31,809 nt of DNA from a virus (Duplodnaviria; Heunggongvirae; Uroviricota; Caudoviricetes; Peduoviridae): IMG/VR virus record IMGVR_UViG_2974787780_000001. One strand, given 5' to 3'. The notes under the pieces were generated by a model. The model did not search any database, had not been told where the DNA came from, and saw only the letters and a program-made list of their open reading frames with translations. Below are positions 1-30,734 of this stretch, in pieces; position 1 is the stretch's first letter, and each line of letters starts with the position of its first letter. A program made the position numbers and the translations under genes.

Positions 1-2283
1 ATGGCCGTTAAAGCCTCCGGGCGTTTTGTCCCTCCGTCAGCATTTGCCGCAGGCACCGGTAAGGCGTTTACCGGTGCTTATGCATGGAACGCGCCACGCG
101 AGGCTGTCGGGCGCGAAAGACCCCTTACACGTGACGAGATGCGTCAGGTGCAAGGTGTTTTATCCACGATTAACCGCCTGCCTTACTTTTTGCGCTCGCT
201 GTTTACTTCACGCTATGACTACATCAGGCGCAATAAAAGCCCGGTGCACGGGTTTTATTTCCTCACATCCACTTTTCAGCGTCGTTTATGGCCGCGCATT
301 GAGCGTGTGAATCAGCGCCATGAAATGAACACCGACGCGTCGTTGCTGTTTCTGGCAGAGCGTGACCACTATGCGCGCCTGCCGGGAATGAATGACAAGG
401 AGCTGAAAAAGTTTGCTGCCCGTATCTCATCGCAGCTTTTCATGATGTATGAGGAACTCTGCGATGCCTGGGTGGATGCGCATGGCGAAAAAGAATCGCT
501 GTTTACGGATGAGGCGCAGGCACATCTGTATGGTCATGTTGCTGGCGCTGCACGTGCTTTCAATATTTCCTCGCTTTACTGGAAAAAATACCGTAAAGGG
601 CAGATGACCACGAGGCAGGCATATTCTGCCATTGCCCGCCTGTTTAACGATGAGTGGTGGATTAGTCAGCTTAAAGGCCAGCGTATGCGCTGGCATGAGG
701 CGTTATTGATTGCTGTCGGGGAGGTCAATAAAGACCGTTCACCTTATGCCAGTAAACATGCCATTCGTGATGTGCGTGCGCGCCGCCAGGCAAATCTGGA
801 ATTTCTTAAATCGTGTGACCTTGAAAACAGGGAAACCGGCGAGCGCATCGACCTTATCAGTAAGGTGATGGGCAGTATTTCTAATCCTGAAATTCGCCGG
901 ATGGAGCTGATGAACACCATTGCCGGTATTGAGCGTTACGCCGCCTCAGAGGGTGATGTGGGGATGTTTATCACGCTTACCGCGCCGTCAAAGTATCACC
1001 CGACACGTCAGGTTGGAAAAGGCGAAAATAAAACCGTCCAGCTTAATCACGGCTGGAATGATGAGGCATTTAATCCAAAGGATGCGCAGCGTTATCTCTG
1101 CCGTATCTGGAGCCTGATGCGCACGGCATTCAAGGATAATGATTTACAGGTCTACGGTTTGCGAGTCGTCGAGCCACACCACGACGGAACGCCGCACTGG
1201 CATATGATGCTTTTTTGTAATCCACGCCAGCGTAACCAGATTATCGAAATCATGCGTCGCTATGCGCTCAAAGAGGATGGCGACGAAAGAGGAGCCGCGC
1301 GAAACCGTTTTCAGGCAAAACACCTTAACCGGGGCGGTGCTGCGGGATATATCGCGAAATACATTTCAAAAAATATCGACGGCTATGCACTGGATGGTCA
1401 GCTCGATAACGATACCGGCAGACCGCTGAAAGATACTGCGGCGGCTGTTACCGCATGGGCGTCAACGTGGCGCATCCCGCAATTTAAAACGGTTGGCCTG
1501 CCGACAATGGGAGCTTACCGTGAGCTACGTAAATTGCCTCGCGGCGTCAGCATTGCTGATGAATTTGACGAACGCGTGGAGGCTGCACGCGCCGCCGCAG
1601 ACAGTGGCGATTTTGCGCTGTATATCAGCGCGCAGGGCGGGGCAAATGTCCCGCGCGATTGTCAGACTGTCAGGGTCGCCCGTAGCCCGTCGGATGACGT
1701 TAACGAATACGAGGAAGAAGTCGAGAGAGTGGTCGGCATTTACGCGCCGCATCTCGGCGCGCGTCATATTCATATCACCAGAACGACGGACTGGCGCATT
1801 GTGCCGAAAGTTCCGGTCGTTGAGCCTTTGACTTTAAAAAGCGGCATCGCCGCGCCTCGGAGTCCTGTCAATAACTGTGGAAAACTCACCGGTGGTGATA
1901 CTTCGTTACCGGCTCCCACACCTTCTGAGCACGCCGCAGCAGTGCTTAATCTGGTTGATGACGGTGTTATCGAATGGAGTGACCCGGAGGTCGTGAGGGC
2001 GCTCAGAGGTGCATTAAAACACGGTCGGAGAACGCCAAGTCGTCAGCAAAGAAACGGAAGCCCGTTAAAACCACATGAAATTGCACCATCGGCCAGACTG
2101 ACCCGGTCGGAAAGAATGCAAATTACCCGTATCCGCGTTGACCTTGCTCAGAACGGTATCAGGCCGCAGCGATGGGAGCTTGAGGCGCTGGCGCGTGGCG
2201 CGACCGTAAATTATGATGGGAAAAAATTCACGTATCCGGTTGTTGATGAGTGGCGGTGGTATATAGTTGATGGTAGGCGGTGA
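1..2283 (+). CDS. A: Replication initiation protein gpA (rolling-circle initiator/nickase)
   Basis: 760-aa ORF beginning at window position 1; N-terminus MAVKASGRFVPPSAF and internal YIAKYISKNIDGY tyrosine motif typical of P2 gpA-type initiators; followed by P2-like synteny. Confidence 0.9.
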   Translation: MAVKASGRFVPPSAFAAGTGKAFTGAYAWNAPREAVGRERPLTRDEMRQVQGVLSTINRLPYFLRSLFTSRYDYIRRNKSPVHGFYFLTSTFQRRLWPRIERVNQRHEMNTDASLLFLAERDHYARLPGMNDKELKKFAARISSQLFMMYEELCDAWVDAHGEKESLFTDEAQAHLYGHVAGAARAFNISSLYWKKYRKGQMTTRQAYSAIARLFNDEWWISQLKGQRMRWHEALLIAVGEVNKDRSPYASKHAIRDVRARRQANLEFLKSCDLENRETGERIDLISKVMGSISNPEIRRMELMNTIAGIERYAASEGDVGMFITLTAPSKYHPTRQVGKGENKTVQLNHGWNDEAFNPKDAQRYLCRIWSLMRTAFKDNDLQVYGLRVVEPHHDGTPHWHMMLFCNPRQRNQIIEIMRRYALKEDGDERGAARNRFQAKHLNRGGAAGYIAKYISKNIDGYALDGQLDNDTGRPLKDTAAAVTAWASTWRIPQFKTVGLPTMGAYRELRKLPRGVSIADEFDERVEAARAAADSGDFALYISAQGGANVPRDCQTVRVARSPSDDVNEYEEEVERVVGIYAPHLGARHIHITRTTDWRIVPKVPVVEPLTLKSGIAAPRSPVNNCGKLTGGDTSLPAPTPSEHAAAVLNLVDDGVIEWSDPEVVRALRGALKHGRRTPSRQQRNGSPLKPHEIAPSARLTRSERMQITRIRVDLAQNGIRPQRWELEALARGATVNYDGKKFTYPVVDEWRWYIVDGRR

Positions 2284-2459
2284 AAAGTTGAAGATGTGAA
2301 CACTGTTATTGGTAGGTAAGTAGATTTGTATGTATAAAGTAGTTGTTGTAGATATGAACAATCAGGCGTAGAATCGCCAGCCGGCTATGATGATTCCAGA
2401 TGATAATGGTTATCATTAGCTGTTGATTTATGATGTTCTTAACCACTAGAGAGACTAAT

Positions 2460-2657
2460 ATGAGCAAAAAGGTTATCACGATACAAGTAAGAGGTGGGCA
2501 CGCAGGTGCTAAGCCTGTTCGTCGTTCAAAACTTGAACAAAGTGTTAATCGTTCCCTGCGTGCTTCGTTTTCTCTGGAAGGTAATCACATTACCAACACT
2601 TCATGGTCTAAAATGTCGCAGGCTGCACGTTTTCTGACCAGAGTAGCTGTTGCTTAA
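2460..2657 (+). CDS. Small basic hypothetical protein (65 aa from ATG 2460; 75 aa if from ATG 2430)
   Basis: ORF track 2430..2657; second ATG at 2460 has purine-rich agagag upstream. Basic composition; lies just downstream of A where P2 carries orf91. Stop codon overlaps the stop of the convergent Fic gene. Confidence 0.4.
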   Translation: MSKKVITIQVRGGHAGAKPVRRSKLEQSVNRSLRASFSLEGNHITNTSWSKMSQAARFLTRVAVA

Positions 2658-3739
2658 AGCTCTTTGATTGCCCTTGAAATAAGGGCAATCAGATTTCTGT
2701 TACTGTCGTGTATTGCGCGTCTTACAGCATAATGGTACGCACGTTTATTTCGCACATCTCCATCTAGCTTTTCCATATCAAATTCATAACCCATAGTAGT
2801 TGCAACAATCTGAAGAAATAATCGTATTGAACGACCATTACCATCTTGAAAGGGGTGGATCCATGCGATTTCTGCATGGAGAGTAGCTAGTTTATGAACT
2901 AACTCTGCTTTAGAATTTATTTTGCTAAGTTCTTTTTTTGTGCAACCTCTAAGACAGGCTTTTAATGATTTTTTGACTTCATTATGTTCCATTGTTGGTC
3001 GCTCTTTATCTCCAACAACAACGGGATGGTTTCTGTATTCACCTGCCCAATCATAAATATGGCCAAAAAGAGCTTTATGGCATTCTAAGATCGTCTTTTC
3101 ATTAATTGTTTTATTTTTGTCGGAGACATAATTTATTATGAGCTGCGTACTTTTGATATATGAAATAACCATTTCGGCAAATTCAACTTGGTATTGGTAT
3201 TTTGCAAATACTAGATTTTTTGTTGCCATGTATTCATATCTTTCATTTTTTCCGTCACGTAAAAGAAAAATGTTGTCTTTTTGGTGCTTTACTTTGATTA
3301 CATGATTGCGTTGAAATGGAAAGTTTTTGTCGTGAGGCAATATGTGAAAATAAGTTTCTTTTTTTAGCTTGTCTACACCAACAATTGAACCAAAAAGAAA
3401 AAGGGCTGCTGTTGTATTAAATAAAACACATACGGAGTCGCCAAGTTGTATCTCTTCGCGACTTAGATCGCATGTTTTTTTCTTATAATTAAATAAATGG
3501 GCGATAGATGGTATGCTGTGATGATTGCGCAATGAACCTGAGCCACATATGACTTCTTTTGTCCTGCTATTCCAGTAATAATTAATGCTTCTCTTATTCT
3601 CTTGTGTTCTTTTTATATGAACCAACTTGAAGCTAAGTAGGCTTAAAGAGAATTCACCATTCTTTTTGACTATATTAACTTTTTGGTGTTTCATTTTGTT
3701 TTTTGTTAGTGTTATTGAAAAATGTTTTGAAGGTATCAT
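2654..3739 (-). CDS. Fic/Doc (Fido) domain protein with ~200-aa N-terminal domain of unknown function; candidate cargo toxin/defence effector
   Basis: 361-aa ORF; C-terminal half contains HPFQDGNGRSIR, matching the Fic active-site consensus HxFx(D/E)GNGRxxR, preceded by the Fic-typical HKALFGHIYDWAGEYR helix. Region is visibly AT-rich versus flanking phage genes. Start codon uncertain (no clear Shine-Dalgarno). Confidence 0.8.
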   Translation of the reverse strand: MIPSKHFSITLTKNKMKHQKVNIVKKNGEFSLSLLSFKLVHIKRTQENKRSINYYWNSRTKEVICGSGSLRNHHSIPSIAHLFNYKKKTCDLSREEIQLGDSVCVLFNTTAALFLFGSIVGVDKLKKETYFHILPHDKNFPFQRNHVIKVKHQKDNIFLLRDGKNERYEYMATKNLVFAKYQYQVEFAEMVISYIKSTQLIINYVSDKNKTINEKTILECHKALFGHIYDWAGEYRNHPVVVGDKERPTMEHNEVKKSLKACLRGCTKKELSKINSKAELVHKLATLHAEIAWIHPFQDGNGRSIRLFLQIVATTMGYEFDMEKLDGDVRNKRAYHYAVRRAIHDSNRNLIALISRAIKEL

Positions 3740-4121
3740 GTTTTGAGTAAGAATGCATGGTTATTATAACATGTTGGAGTTTTATCGCTAAAAAATGGAT
3801 GTAGTGAGAAGTTTGTTGCTCATGACATTTACACTTAAGATGAACAGGAGGTGCTGTTTCGGTAAGATTATCTTTGTCCCATCACATAGCACAGCTCAAT
3901 TTATCACTCATATCTTCATTTCCTTCCAGTGACAACACAAAGCTTTAAAGTCACCTTCTGTGATGCTGCTTTATGTCATTTCATAAGATCAGAGTTATGC
4001 ATGCATTAGGTGCATGGCTTTGCATGTATCAGAATTATACGTTTTCGGCGTCCGACATCACAGCTAGTTTGGATTCAGAGATGTCATGCAACCGCATTAA
4101 AACCTCCACATGAAGCGGGCG

Positions 4122-4308: not shown

Positions 4309-5343
4309 TCAGCCGTTGTCAGTGTCCAGTGAGTAGTTTTTAAAGCGGATGACCTCCTGACCGAGCCAGCCGTTTATCTCGCGGATCCTGTCCTGTAACG
4401 GGATAAGCTCATTGCGGACAAAGACCTTTGCCACTTTCTCAATATCACCCAGCGACCCGACGTTCTCCGGCTTGCCGCCCATCAACTGAAAGGGGATGCG
4501 GTGCGCGTCCAGCAGGTCTGCGGCACTGGCTTTTTTGATATTAAAAAAATCGTCCTTCGTCGCCACTTCACTGAGCGGGATAATTTTAATGCCGTCGGCT
4601 TTTCCCTGTGGGGCATAGAGAAACAGGTTTTTAAAGTTGTTGCGGCCTTTTGACTTGACCATGTTTTCGCGGAGCATTTCGATATCGTTGCGATCCTGCA
4701 CGGCATCGGTGACGTACATGATGTATCCGGCATGAGCGCCGTTTTCGTAATACTTGCGGCGGAACAGCGTGGCTGATTCATTCAGCCAGGCAGAGTTAAG
4801 GGCGCTGAGATATTCCGGCAGACCGTACAGCTCCTGATTAATATCCGGCTCCAGCAGGTGAAACACGGAGCCGGGCGCGAAAGGTGTCGGCTCATGGAAG
4901 GACGGCACCCACCAGTAAACATCCTCTTCCACGCCACGGCGGGTATATTTTGCCGGTGAGGTTTCCAGTCTGATGACCTTACCGGTGGTGCTGTAACGCT
5001 TTTCCAGAAACGCATTACCGAACACCAGAAAATCCAGCACAAAGCGGCTGAAATCCTGCTGGGAAAGCCACGGATGCGGGATAAATGTCGAGGCCAGAAT
5101 ATTGCGTTTGACGTAAATCGGTGAGCTGTGATGCACGGCAGCACGCAGGCTTTTTGCCAGACCGGTAAAGCTGACCGGTGGCTCATACCATCTGCCGTTA
5201 CTGATGCACTCGACGTAATCCAGAATGTCACGGCGGTCGAGTACCGGCACCGGCTCACCAAAGGTGAATGCCTCCATTTTCGGGGCGCTGGCGGTCATTT
5301 TTTTTGCCGCAGGTTGCGGTGTTTTCCCTTTTTTCTTGCTCAT
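4309..5343 (-). CDS. Q: Portal protein gpQ
   Basis: 344-aa ORF, same length as P2 gpQ; adjacent to cos and upstream gene P on same strand; start overlaps P stop by 1 nt. Confidence 0.92.
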   Translation of the reverse strand: MSKKKGKTPQPAAKKMTASAPKMEAFTFGEPVPVLDRRDILDYVECISNGRWYEPPVSFTGLAKSLRAAVHHSSPIYVKRNILASTFIPHPWLSQQDFSRFVLDFLVFGNAFLEKRYSTTGKVIRLETSPAKYTRRGVEEDVYWWVPSFHEPTPFAPGSVFHLLEPDINQELYGLPEYLSALNSAWLNESATLFRRKYYENGAHAGYIMYVTDAVQDRNDIEMLRENMVKSKGRNNFKNLFLYAPQGKADGIKIIPLSEVATKDDFFNIKKASAADLLDAHRIPFQLMGGKPENVGSLGDIEKVAKVFVRNELIPLQDRIREINGWLGQEVIRFKNYSLDTDNG

Positions 5344-30066: not shown

Positions 30067-30237
30067 ATGAATGAGCCGCGTTGTATTGCTCAGTTACTGC
30101 GTAACGAAAGCCCCAGGGCGATTGACTTCACCATCACCCACGGGAAGGGTCGCAAGGGAATCATTATCCGCACCAAAAAACAGAGTCCGTTAAAAAAGGC
30201 TCTGACCTTTCTGAAAAGCCGGAGGGTCTGGAAATGA
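30067..30237 (+). CDS. Small early protein (P2 orf78-position)
   Basis: ORF track 30040..30237; ATG at 30067 follows cox stop with GGGG purine tract upstream; 56 aa, basic. Confidence 0.5.
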   Translation: MNEPRCIAQLLRNESPRAIDFTITHGKGRKGIIIRTKKQSPLKKALTFLKSRRVWK

Positions 30238-30734
30238 CAGTGATGACGCTCAATCTCGTCGAAAAACAGCCAGCAACTATGCGCCGGATAATTGGTAAGC
30301 ATCTGGCCGTCCCTCGCTGGCAGGATACATGTGATTATTATAATCAGATGATGGAGCGCGAACGGTTAACGGTTTGCTTTCATGCGCAGTTAAAACAGCG
30401 TCACGCAACGATGCGTTTTGAAGAAATGAACGACGTCGAACGTGAACGGCTGGTTTGTGCAATTGATGAATTGCGTGGGGCATTCTCAAAACGCCGTCAG
30501 GTTGGCGCAAGTGAGTATGCATATATTAGTTTTTTAACAGTCAGTCAGCGCCGTACTTTATTTATGCATGCCGGATTGACTGAAAAAGAATTCAACCAGC
30601 CATACTGGCGAATTAATGAAGAGTCATGTTACTGGCGTGATGCTTTATTCCGTGCATTACGTGAATTATTCAGCCTGTTTGAGTATGCACCGACAATTCT
30701 GACGTCGGTTAAACCAGAGCAATATCTGCATTAA
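30234..30734 (+). CDS. B: Replication protein gpB (helicase loader-like)
   Basis: 166-aa ORF, P2 gpB length/position between cox and A. Confidence 0.85.
   Translation: MTVMTLNLVEKQPATMRRIIGKHLAVPRWQDTCDYYNQMMERERLTVCFHAQLKQRHATMRFEEMNDVERERLVCAIDELRGAFSKRRQVGASEYAYISFLTVSQRRTLFMHAGLTEKEFNQPYWRINEESCYWRDALFRALRELFSLFEYAPTILTSVKPEQYLH

What the first reader, a model, noticed from the sequence alone, without database searches (positions are those of the whole stretch)
2401..2657. Small basic ORF convergent with the Fic gene, overlapping stop codons, preceded by a perfect TGATAA-N3-TTATCA palindrome
The 65-75-aa basic ORF ends at TAA 2655-2657 while the Fic gene on the other strand ends at 2654-2656, so their 3' ends overlap by 2 nt and any transcripts must be antisense at their termini. 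A perfect palindrome TGATAATGGTTATCA at 2401-2415 lies just upstream of the small ORF. This looks like a compact regulatory arrangement, possibly a regulator or antitoxin-like partner controlling the Fic effector by transcriptional interference.
Basis: seen in the sequence. Interest (0 to 1): 0.45.

Follow-up and report, generated by a model that had tools for sequence, protein, structure and literature searches.

The report
Convergent Fic toxin–antitoxin pair, Fur-box leader
The small gene that runs head-on into the Fic gene most likely encodes the Fic enzyme's own inhibitor (a toxin–antitoxin pair carried as cargo by a P2-like phage), and the palindrome in front of it is a near-perfect binding site for the iron regulator Fur; a pair with this layout has been tested in Yersinia, so it is a new variant, not a new kind.

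Summary
The small gene's TAA (2655-2657) and the Fic gene's TAA on the other strand (2654-2656) share two bases, and TGATAATGGTTATCA lies at 2401-2415. The real small gene is 65 aa (ATG 2460); the 75-aa version is not conserved.

The small gene is not a P2 backbone gene. It has no similarity to P2 orf91. It sits convergent to a two-domain Fic gene in every context examined: P2- and 186-like prophages, a Photorhabdus chromosome, a Providencia plasmid, Vibrio and others.

The small protein keeps the Fic inhibition motif [S/T]xxxE[G/N] (SFSLEG) in 16 of 17 relatives. The Fic protein has the canonical catalytic motif, no inhibitory motif of its own, and folds like VbhT and EcFicT. So this is most likely a class I Fic toxin–antitoxin pair. 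FicY–AntY of Yersinia pseudotuberculosis has the same convergent layout, and AntY blocked FicY in vitro.

The palindrome alone is not beyond chance. It matches the Fur-box consensus at 17 of 19 positions and is conserved in the P2 lineage only.

A hairpin just after the small gene's stop, inside the Fic coding end, shows covariation and looks like the small gene's terminator.

Toxicity, neutralisation, Fur binding and phage defence are untested.

The parts
1..2283 (+). P2-type replication gene A (gpA). This is phage backbone and the left border of the gpA-gpQ cargo hotspot; it is not part of the module.
   Evidence: Pfam Phage_GPA E=1e-122. The hotspot is defined between gpA and gpQ in PMC9122126.
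2346..2374 (+). Candidate sigma-70 promoter of the small gene: TTGTAG (2346-2351), 17 nt, TAGAAT (2369-2374). Inferred, not mapped.
   Evidence: Both hexamers and their spacing are conserved in six P2-lineage loci while the flanks vary. The site falls below the consensus scanner's threshold. Homology with FSL SP-004 starts at about 2344.
2401..2420 (.). Fur-box-like palindrome in the small gene's leader: the 15-bp TGATAATGGTTATCA (2401-2415) within the 19-bp GATAATGGTTATCATTAGC (2402-2420).
   Evidence: 17/19 (- strand) and 16/19 (+ strand) to GATAATGATAATCATTATC, with 0 matches in 100 shuffles. One mismatch to TGATAATnATTATCA. These sites are the only matches with 2 or fewer mismatches in 763 kb of fetched DNA. 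Kept with one mismatch, at differing positions, in six P2-lineage loci and absent in other lineages.
2448..2453 (+). Shine-Dalgarno-like AGAGAG, 6 nt before ATG 2460.
   Evidence: Read from the sequence. AGAGAG(A) is conserved in all P2-lineage loci.
2460..2657 (+). Small gene, 65 aa, the putative Fic antitoxin (AntY/FicA-like in function). Inhibition motif S36-F-S-L-E40-G41.
   Evidence: Block VNRSLRASFSLEG is invariant. The motif is in the same column in 16/17 relatives. Helix 22-40 ends at E40-G41. dN/dS 0.11-0.43. Always paired with Fic. No Pfam or PDB sequence hit.
2654..2657 (.). TTAA shared by the two convergent stop codons.
   Evidence: The same 4-nt overlap recurs in L007, L008, L010, L012, L022, L023, L024, L027, L029 and in the FicY-AntY locus L101.
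2663..2693 (+). Hairpin followed by TTTCTGTT: the probable intrinsic terminator of the small gene, lying inside the last codons of fic.
   Evidence: Flagged as terminator-like, 14 pairs. Folds in eight loci including Photorhabdus. 7 of 13 pairs change on both sides, 94% of cells are paired, and 0/500 shuffles reach this. The wobble pairs fit the + strand RNA.
2654..3694 (-). Fic gene, 346 aa (an alternative upstream ATG at 3739 is not conserved). N-terminal beta-rich domain (about 1-150) plus a class I Fic domain (about 167-342) with H280-PFQDGNGRSIR291.
3730..3771 (-). Candidate fic promoter elements on the - strand: extended -10 TGTTATAAT (3763-3771) and a conserved TGnTAnnnT element (about 3730-3738). 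There is no Shine-Dalgarno before ATG 3694.
   Evidence: Read from the sequence. Partial conservation in the alignment of fic upstream regions. Inferred, not mapped.
4309..5343 (-). Portal gene (gpQ), the right border of the hotspot.
   Evidence: ORF list. Annotated as portal in the identical locus of STYP1 and E. coli N21.

Best explanation
Window 2344-3995 is an AT-rich two-gene cargo module in the gpA-gpQ hotspot of a P2-like phage. It is a class I Fic toxin (346 aa, - strand) with a 65-aa partner (+ strand) that acts as its antitoxin.

Shown by sequence and comparison:
- The Fic domain is VbhT/EcFicT-like, has the AMPylation-competent motif HPFxDGNGRxxR, and has no inhibitory helix of its own.
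- The partner carries the inhibition motif S-x-x-x-E-G at the end of a predicted helix.
- The pair is inherited as a convergent unit across phages, chromosomes and plasmids.

Inferred by analogy with VbhA-VbhT, EcFicA-EcFicT and above all the convergent FicY-AntY pair:
- Glu40 of the small protein reaches into the ATP site and keeps Fic inactive.
- Free Fic would AMPylate a cellular target (GyrB or ParE in the tested relatives) and stop growth. This would serve phage exclusion or retention of the element.

Inferred gene expression:
- The two genes have separate promoters.
- The small gene has a good ribosome-binding site. Its terminator hairpin is embedded in the last codons of fic.
- fic has no Shine-Dalgarno and no terminator of its own. 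Complete fic transcripts are therefore antisense to the small mRNA, which can add RNA-level or collision control.

In the P2 lineage only, the small gene's leader carries a near-consensus Fur box. I infer that Fe-Fur binds there, so iron status adjusts how much antitoxin is made.

No terminator separates gpA from the small gene. Early-operon read-through during the phage's own lytic growth could therefore raise antitoxin.
For: Pairing:
- The small ORF lies convergent to Fic in every locus examined: P2-like prophages of E. coli, Salmonella, Enterobacter and Serratia and a 186-like prophage.
- It does so also in a Photorhabdus chromosome, a Providencia Rep3 plasmid and a contig next to methylase/AAA genes.
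- The same holds in Mixta, Yersinia thracica, Proteus, Phytobacter, Celerinatantimonas, two Vibrio and Piscirickettsia.

Motif and class:
- SFSLEG is invariant, and the motif is kept in 16/17 relatives. No inhibitory motif is conserved across the 24 Fic relatives; one member has a single non-conserved match.
- The catalytic motif is invariant.
- The predicted helix 22-40 ends at E40-G41.
- The definitions of class I and of the motif are in PMC5033356.

The small ORF is protein coding: dN/dS 0.11-0.43.

Precedent: FicY-AntY is convergent, and AntY blocks FicY AMPylation of ParE in a dose-dependent way (PMC7479194). Its locus L101 has the same 4-nt stop overlap.

Terminator hairpin.

Fur box.

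Hotspot and cargo:
- The gpA-gpQ hotspot is described in PMC9122126.
- The cargo is present in 11-12 of 5426 E. coli genomes.
- GC drops from about 55% to 32-41% across it.
- The Fic domain hits the PADLOC defence candidate PDC-S04.
Against: - The small protein has no detectable sequence homology to VbhA, FicA or AntY. There is no Pfam or PDB hit. Profile comparison aligns the motifs in register but without significance.
- The motif alone would occur by chance in roughly 5% of 65-aa proteins (my estimate).
- The small protein is very basic (net about +10), unlike typical acidic antitoxins.
- One relative (P0017) has Ala in place of the key Glu.
- The AF2 model of the small protein has low confidence (pLDDT 62), and no complex could be modelled.
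- The Fur box lies about 21-40 nt downstream of the predicted transcription start, not over the promoter. It is absent from all non-P2 lineages. Repressing an antitoxin when iron is plentiful is not obviously adaptive.
- No expression, toxicity, binding or defence data exist for this module.
Confidence: 0.72

Rival explanations
1. The palindrome is the module's own autoregulatory operator. A dimer of the basic small protein, or the Fic-small protein complex, binds it as in classical type II toxin-antitoxin operons. Its likeness to a Fur box is a coincidence.
For: - The small protein is strongly basic and has a conserved N-terminal beta-strand (KKVITIQVRG) followed by two helices, loosely like a ribbon-helix-helix protein.
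- The site lies between the predicted promoter and the start codon.
- The half-sites are conserved while the spacer varies.
Against: - The N-terminal strand is conserved in every lineage. The palindrome is found only in the P2 lineage, and the other lineages show no equivalent inverted repeat in their leaders.
- The half-site equals the Fur consensus (17/19, with none in shuffles).
- The small protein has no Pfam DNA-binding domain, and residues 1-15 are modelled as disordered.
Confidence: 0.2
2. The control is mainly at the RNA level. Convergent transcription and the 3' antisense overlap (transcriptional interference or a double-stranded RNA) regulate fic, and the peptide itself is unimportant.
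For: - The stop-stop overlap and the tight convergence are conserved down to 31% Fic identity.
- The small gene's terminator hairpin lies inside the fic coding end.
- No terminator-like site for fic was found on the - strand between 2200 and 2653, so fic transcripts should run antisense across the small gene.
Against: - The small ORF is under purifying selection as a protein (dN/dS 0.11-0.43).
- It has an invariant 13-residue block that includes the Fic inhibition motif.
- In some relatives the genes are separated by 7-14 nt.
- Purified AntY protein is enough to inhibit FicY in vitro (PMC7479194).
Confidence: 0.1
3. The small ORF is a P2 backbone gene, the counterpart of orf91, present whatever the cargo and unrelated to Fic. 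The palindrome and the overlap are chance.
For: It occupies the position just downstream of gpA, on the same strand, as orf91 does in P2. Perfect 6-3-6 palindromes are common in the window.
Against: - It has no similarity to P2 orf91.
- The DNA is cargo, present in only 11-12 of 5426 E. coli genomes, whereas about 2150 share the flanking backbone.
- The same pair occurs outside phages.
- The palindrome is conserved and matches the Fur consensus.
Confidence: 0.01

Closest known systems
FicY-AntY of Yersinia pseudotuberculosis YPIII (YPK_0608; Front Microbiol 2020, PMC7479194)
   Same: - A class I Fic whose inhibitor is encoded by a downstream, convergent small ORF with its own promoter.
- The stop codons overlap in the same TTAA way in locus L101.
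- The inhibitor motif aligns in register: YRSVASSTAIE against NRSLRASFSLE.
- AntY protein blocks AMPylation of ParE in vitro.
   Different: - FicY is a single-domain protein of about 210 aa. The Fic here has an extra N-terminal beta domain of about 150 aa.
- The Fic cores are only 29% identical over about 100 residues.
- AntY is 52 aa with its motif at residues 22-27 (STAIET) and lacks the N-terminal strand. Homology between the two small proteins is not significant.
- I saw no Fur box upstream of antY.
- FicY-AntY lies next to an integrase, not in a P2 hotspot.
VbhT-VbhA and EcFicT-EcFicA (FicTA class I type II toxin-antitoxin modules; PDB 3SHG, 5JFF)
   Same: - They are the best structural and sequence matches of the Fic domain.
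- The inhibitory [S/T]xxxE[G/N] motif is supplied by a separate small protein.
- VbhA's ALASQRLEG aligns with RASFSLEG here.
   Different: - In FicTA modules the antitoxin gene lies directly upstream, in one operon. Here it is downstream and convergent.
- The small protein has no significant sequence similarity to VbhA or FicA, and it is basic rather than acidic.
- The Fic here has an added N-terminal domain.
SoFic anti-phage system, with its small antitoxin AS1 (PMC12249575)
   Same: A Fic-domain toxin that works as an abortive-infection defence, with a small downstream gene that counteracts its toxicity. The Fic core here hits the PADLOC SoFic profile at 1.8e-13.
   Different: - SoFic is class II, with an internal inhibitory helix, and has a different domain layout.
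- The NCBIfam SoFic model scores 15 bits against a cut-off of 550.
- How AS1 works is unknown, and it is unrelated in length (47 aa).
Fur boxes of Enterobacteria (consensus GATAATGATAATCATTATC; 7-1-7 reading TGATAATnATTATCA; both from my knowledge of the literature)
   Same: 17/19 and 13/14 matches. The site is conserved in hosts that share this Fur consensus.
   Different: It lies downstream of the predicted -10 rather than over the promoter. It is a single dimer-sized site. Binding has not been tested.

Membership tests
Class I Fic toxin-antitoxin (FicTA) | Fic fold with the AMPylation-competent motif HxFx(D/E)GNGRxxR | tested here: met
   [not shown]
Class I Fic toxin-antitoxin (FicTA) | No inhibitory [S/T]xxxE[G/N] helix within the Fic protein itself | tested here: met
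   A regex search over 24 relatives found no conserved occurrence, only one non-conserved hit in a single sequence.
Class I Fic toxin-antitoxin (FicTA) | An adjacent small protein carrying [S/T]xxxE[G/N] on a helix | tested here: met
   S36FSLEG41 is invariant in the close family and kept in the same column in 16/17 relatives. It is also present in every convergent partner ORF found next to distant Fic relatives. The predicted helix 22-40 ends at E40-G41, at low confidence.
Class I Fic toxin-antitoxin (FicTA) | Antitoxin homologous in sequence to FicA/VbhA | tested here: not met
   No Pfam hit at E<=1 other than a chance DUF. No PDB hit by phmmer or by profile. hhalign against VbhA gives E 0.068 and probability 0.8%.
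Class I Fic toxin-antitoxin (FicTA) | Antitoxin gene directly upstream of the toxin in one operon | tested here: not met
   The genes are convergent with overlapping stops in all loci. The canonical arrangement is described in PMC5033356.
Class I Fic toxin-antitoxin (FicTA) | The toxin arrests growth and the antitoxin neutralises it by direct binding | not testable with these tools
   This needs expression and binding experiments. A complex prediction was not possible with the tools.
FicY-AntY type (convergent class I Fic pair) | The inhibitor is encoded downstream of fic on the opposite strand, with 3' ends meeting | tested here: met
   Window 2654-2657. The FicY-AntY locus L101 has Fic 1120-1752 (+) and AntY 1749-1907 (-). 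The paper describes the convergent arrangement.
FicY-AntY type (convergent class I Fic pair) | Sequence homology of both partners to FicY and AntY | tested here: inconclusive
   The Fic cores are 29% identical over 102 residues, E 9e-12, which is generic Fic similarity. AntY against the small-protein profile aligns the motif in register, but E is 0.1.
Fur-regulated promoter | A close match to the 19-bp Fur-box consensus | tested here: met
   17/19 on the - strand and 16/19 on the + strand at 2402-2420, with 0 matches at <=3 mismatches in 100 shuffles. These sites are the only ones with <=2 mismatches in 763 kb.
Fur-regulated promoter | The box overlaps the promoter, and expression responds to iron and Fur | tested here: inconclusive
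   The box lies about 27 nt downstream of the conserved TAGAAT. The promoter itself is only inferred. The response to iron cannot be tested here.
Rho-independent terminator (of the small gene) | A stable GC-containing hairpin followed by a U-rich tract at the end of the gene | tested here: met
   A 14-pair stem at 2663-2693 followed by TTTCTGTT. The hairpin is kept with 7 of 13 pairs changed on both sides. The U tract is only moderate, and the 3' ends are not mapped.
P2 orf91 (DUF3850) backbone gene | Sequence similarity to P2 Orf91 | tested here: not met
   BLASTP finds no alignment at E<=100. P2 Orf91 is annotated as a 109-aa DUF3850 protein.
SoFic defence system | Full-length match to the SoFic model (class II architecture) | tested here: not met
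   NCBIfam ProtAdlyltaseSoFic scores 15 bits against a cut-off of 550. The PADLOC SoFic hit covers the Fic core only.

The most novel reading that the evidence does not exclude
The module is an iron-gated abortive-infection system. Fur occupancy of the antitoxin leader and head-on transcription together set the antitoxin-to-toxin ratio. A P2 lysogen's readiness to fire the Fic toxin against incoming phages would then depend on iron status, which is also the condition that controls siderophore-receptor phage entry. The phage's own early-operon read-through would disarm the toxin during its own lytic growth.
Probability: 0.12. Interest if true: 0.7.

Novelty: new variant of a known kind. Interest (0 to 1): 0.42.

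Why it matters
- It gives a likely function to a 'hypothetical protein' found in P2-like phages of E. coli, Salmonella and Yersinia. It also defines an unannotated family of Fic inhibitors that no Pfam model detects.
- The convergent, stop-overlapping layout first seen in FicY-AntY turns out to be a recurrent and deeply conserved design in Gammaproteobacteria. It comes with a terminator written into the toxin's last codons. This makes a clean system for asking why some toxin-antitoxin pairs abandon the operon layout.
- If the Fur box works, this would be a prophage-borne toxin-antitoxin or defence module wired to the host's iron regulon. I found no described example of that.
- The module sits in the P2 defence hotspot, so it is a reasonable candidate anti-phage system to test.

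Tried and rejected
- Direct homology of the small protein to known antitoxins gave nothing: Pfam, NCBIfam and PADLOC, PDB by sequence and by profile, and Foldseek on its AF2 model. hhalign against VbhA and AntY was not significant.
- The exhaustive profile search found only about six more true relatives. None has a Pfam domain.
- The search for related loci with the small-protein alignments failed. The Fic alignment worked.
- The 75-aa reading of the ORF was rejected.
- A link to P2 orf91 was rejected.
- I looked for a Fur box near the fic promoter and found none with fewer than 7 mismatches.
- I looked for equivalent palindromes in the leaders of other lineages and found none.
- A second Fur-like site at 30332 lies inside gene B and is probably chance.
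- I considered FNR/CRP-type sites (TTGAT-N4-ATCAA) for the palindrome, but the spacing does not fit (by eye).

Full report
**What the window is.** The 31,809-bp window is 100% identical over the queried stretch to Yersinia phage VB-YPM-18, a P2-like (Peduovirus) genome of the same length. Replication gene A ends at 2283 and the portal gene gpQ lies at 4309-5343. The interval between gpA and gpQ is the defence and cargo hotspot described for P2-like phages (PMC9122126). In P2 itself it holds orf91, tin and old. Here GC falls from about 55% to 32-41% across 2284-4050. This cargo occurs in only 11-12 of 5426 complete E. coli genomes, whereas about 2150 share the flanking backbone.

**Checking the observation.** The coordinates are right. 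The small ORF's TAA is at 2655-2657 and the Fic TAA on the - strand is at 2654-2656. They share the tetranucleotide TTAA. The perfect palindrome TGATAA-TGG-TTATCA lies at 2401-2415. I make three corrections.
- The real small gene is 65 aa, starting at ATG 2460 behind AGAGAG. The 75-aa form is out of frame in Salmonella phage FSL SP-004, and PGAP calls the 65-aa form.
- Fic is 346 aa, starting at ATG 3694.
- A 6-3-6 palindrome is not unusual in itself. There are 16 in the window against 7.7 expected.

**The small gene belongs to Fic, not to the phage backbone.** It has no similarity to P2 orf91. Its relatives form a small unannotated family of 15 clusters at 65% identity or more, plus about six more distant ones. 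Wherever I could see the context, the small gene lies convergent to a Fic gene with the 3' ends touching:
- P2-like prophages of E. coli, Salmonella, Enterobacter and Serratia, and a 186-like prophage;
- the Photorhabdus chromosome, between housekeeping genes;
- a small Rep3 plasmid of Providencia;
- a contig beside methylase/AAA genes.

Starting instead from the Fic protein, every full-length relative has such a partner: Mixta, Yersinia thracica, Proteus, Phytobacter, Celerinatantimonas and two Vibrio, at 31-54% identity. So does a Fic-domain-only relative in Piscirickettsia. The 4-nt TTAA overlap is the commonest state. Others overlap by 8-41 nt or are 7-14 nt apart. Homology between the window and FSL SP-004 runs from about 2344 to about 3697, from the small gene's promoter to the fic start.

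**What the two proteins are.**
- The Fic protein has a confident model (pLDDT 87.6). It shows an N-terminal beta-rich domain (about 1-150) and a helical Fic domain (167-342).
- Its best matches are class I toxins solved with their antitoxins: VbhT, EcFicT, Bep Fic domains and Fic-1.
- The catalytic motif HPFQDGNGRSIR is invariant.
- No inhibitory motif [S/T]xxxE[G/N] is conserved across the 24 family members; one member has a single non-conserved match.
- The small protein has that motif (S36-F-S-L-E40-G41) inside an invariant block, VNRSLRASFSLEG. The motif is in the same column in 16 of 17 relatives and in the partners found beside distant Fic genes.
- Its model has low confidence (pLDDT 62), but it places the motif at the C-terminal end of helix 22-40.
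- The ORF evolves under purifying selection (dN/dS 0.11-0.43).

By the published definition this is a class I arrangement: the inhibitory helix comes from a separate small protein whose glutamate pairs with the second arginine of the Fic motif (PMC5033356). Sequence homology of the small protein to VbhA, FicA or AntY could not be shown. I therefore claim that it works like a Fic antitoxin, not that it is a member of those families.

**A direct precedent.** Lu and colleagues reported that FicY of Yersinia pseudotuberculosis is a class I Fic. Its inhibitor AntY is encoded by a downstream convergent ORF. Purified AntY blocks FicY AMPylation of ParE in a dose-dependent way (PMC7479194). I recovered that locus from a metagenome (L101). 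Fic lies at 1120-1752 (+) and the 52-aa AntY at 1749-1907 (-), with the same 4-nt stop overlap. FicY lacks the N-terminal domain, and its core is only 29% identical to the Fic here. The module here is a separate, larger relative of the same design.

**The palindrome.** It matches the Enterobacterial Fur-box consensus GATAATGATAATCATTATC at 17 of 19 positions on the - strand and 16 of 19 on the + strand, at 2402-2420. No match at 3 or fewer mismatches appears in 100 shuffles. It matches the 7-1-7 form TGATAATnATTATCA with one mismatch. In 763 kb of fetched DNA, the only sites with two or fewer mismatches are this one and its homologues.

In six P2-lineage loci the half-sites TGATAA and TATCA are kept, with a single mismatch at differing positions and a variable spacer, while the surrounding leader diverges. 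The site is absent from the 186-like, Photorhabdus, Providencia, Vibrio and other lineages. Those have their own promoters and no equivalent inverted repeat. This pattern favours a host factor recruited in one lineage over a universal autoregulatory operator, but it does not exclude the operator.

The site lies about 27 nt downstream of a conserved TTGTAG-17-TAGAAT promoter candidate. That is roughly +21 to +40, an atypical position for Fur repression. No Fur-like site lies near fic.

**The 3' junction.** Directly after the small gene's stop, at 2663-2693, is a 13-14-pair hairpin followed by TTTCTGTT. The scanner flags it as terminator-like. It lies inside the codons for the Fic C-terminus (LIALISRAIKEL). 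It is kept in eight loci, including Photorhabdus. Seven of 13 pairs change on both sides, 94% of cells are paired, and none of 500 shuffles reaches this. The G-U pairs fit the + strand RNA, which is the small gene's transcript.

No terminator-like site for fic was found on the - strand downstream of its stop. Full fic transcripts must therefore be antisense to at least the last 45 nt of the small mRNA, and probably to more. fic has no Shine-Dalgarno in any P2-lineage locus, while the small gene has one. That fits low toxin and high antitoxin translation. No terminator separates gpA from the small gene, so early-operon read-through is possible.

**How it most likely works.**
- Shown: a conserved convergent pair of a class I-type, catalytically competent Fic and a small protein carrying the inhibition motif; a conserved hairpin at the junction; and a conserved Fur-consensus site in the P2 lineage.
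- Inferred: the small protein binds Fic and blocks ATP positioning through E40. Free Fic AMPylates a cellular target (GyrB or ParE in the tested relatives) and arrests growth, which serves phage exclusion or retention of the element. Separate promoters let the ratio be tuned. Fur ties antitoxin output to iron. Antisense overlap and polymerase collisions add a second layer.
- Confidence: about 0.72 for the toxin-antitoxin assignment, about 0.5 for real Fur binding, about 0.4 for a defence role, and about 0.3 for a meaningful RNA-level contribution.

**Novelty.** The kind is known: a class I Fic toxin-antitoxin, with a convergent example already tested. New here are the two-domain Fic family with its unannotated basic partner family, the wide conservation of the stop-overlapping layout, the terminator encoded within the toxin's last codons, and the Fur-box leader in P2 cargo. 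I found no paper describing this module, or a Fic pair in the P2 hotspot.

Noticed in passing
L101:1749-1907 (metagenome contig OGST01001090.1): The primers labelled 'FicY' in the supplement of PMC7479194 match the small ORF (MTKKTVHS...VGLAR, which has the S22TAIET27 motif). That ORF is AntY, not the Fic gene, so the labels in the primer table look swapped.
   Followed up: partly
window 3695-3720 (- strand leader of fic): fic has no Shine-Dalgarno sequence. An A-rich leader ending AAAATGAAACA is conserved in all P2-lineage loci, while the small gene has AGAGAG. This suggests built-in low translation of the toxin.
   Followed up: partly
window 2524-2538 and 2580-2594: Two more perfect 6-3-6 palindromes lie inside the small ORF (GTTCAAAACTTGAAC and GGTAATCACATTACC). 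The first is kept in FSL SP-004 and both are broken in more distant loci, so they are probably chance.
   Followed up: partly
window 30332-30346: TGATTATTATAATCA has two mismatches to the Fur 7-1-7 motif and lies inside the gene B-like ORF (30234-30734). It is probably chance.
   Followed up: partly
[not shown]
   Followed up: partly
P0017 and P0024 (relatives of the small protein): P0017 has SFALAG, with Ala replacing the inhibitory Glu. P0024 is a 232-aa protein in which a class II aminoacyl-tRNA-synthetase-like N-terminus precedes a degenerate copy of the small protein. It may be a gene-call artefact or a fusion.
   Followed up: no
L016: about 124 nt upstream of the small ORF start (Providencia Rep3 plasmid): A perfect inverted repeat with 28-bp arms lies upstream of the small ORF in the plasmid-borne copy of the module.
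   Followed up: no
L018:1844-5153: In one metagenomic contig the module lies next to an 846-aa N6-methylase/AAA-ATPase protein and a 261-aa protein. That neighbourhood resembles a defence island.
   Followed up: no
window 2284-2459: No terminator-like site lies between the gpA stop and the small gene. P2 early-operon transcripts could run into the small gene and end at the 2663-2693 hairpin.
   Followed up: partly
window 2460-2654: The putative antitoxin is very basic (12 K/R, 2 E, no D), unlike the acidic VbhA. Nucleic-acid binding is not excluded.
   Followed up: no
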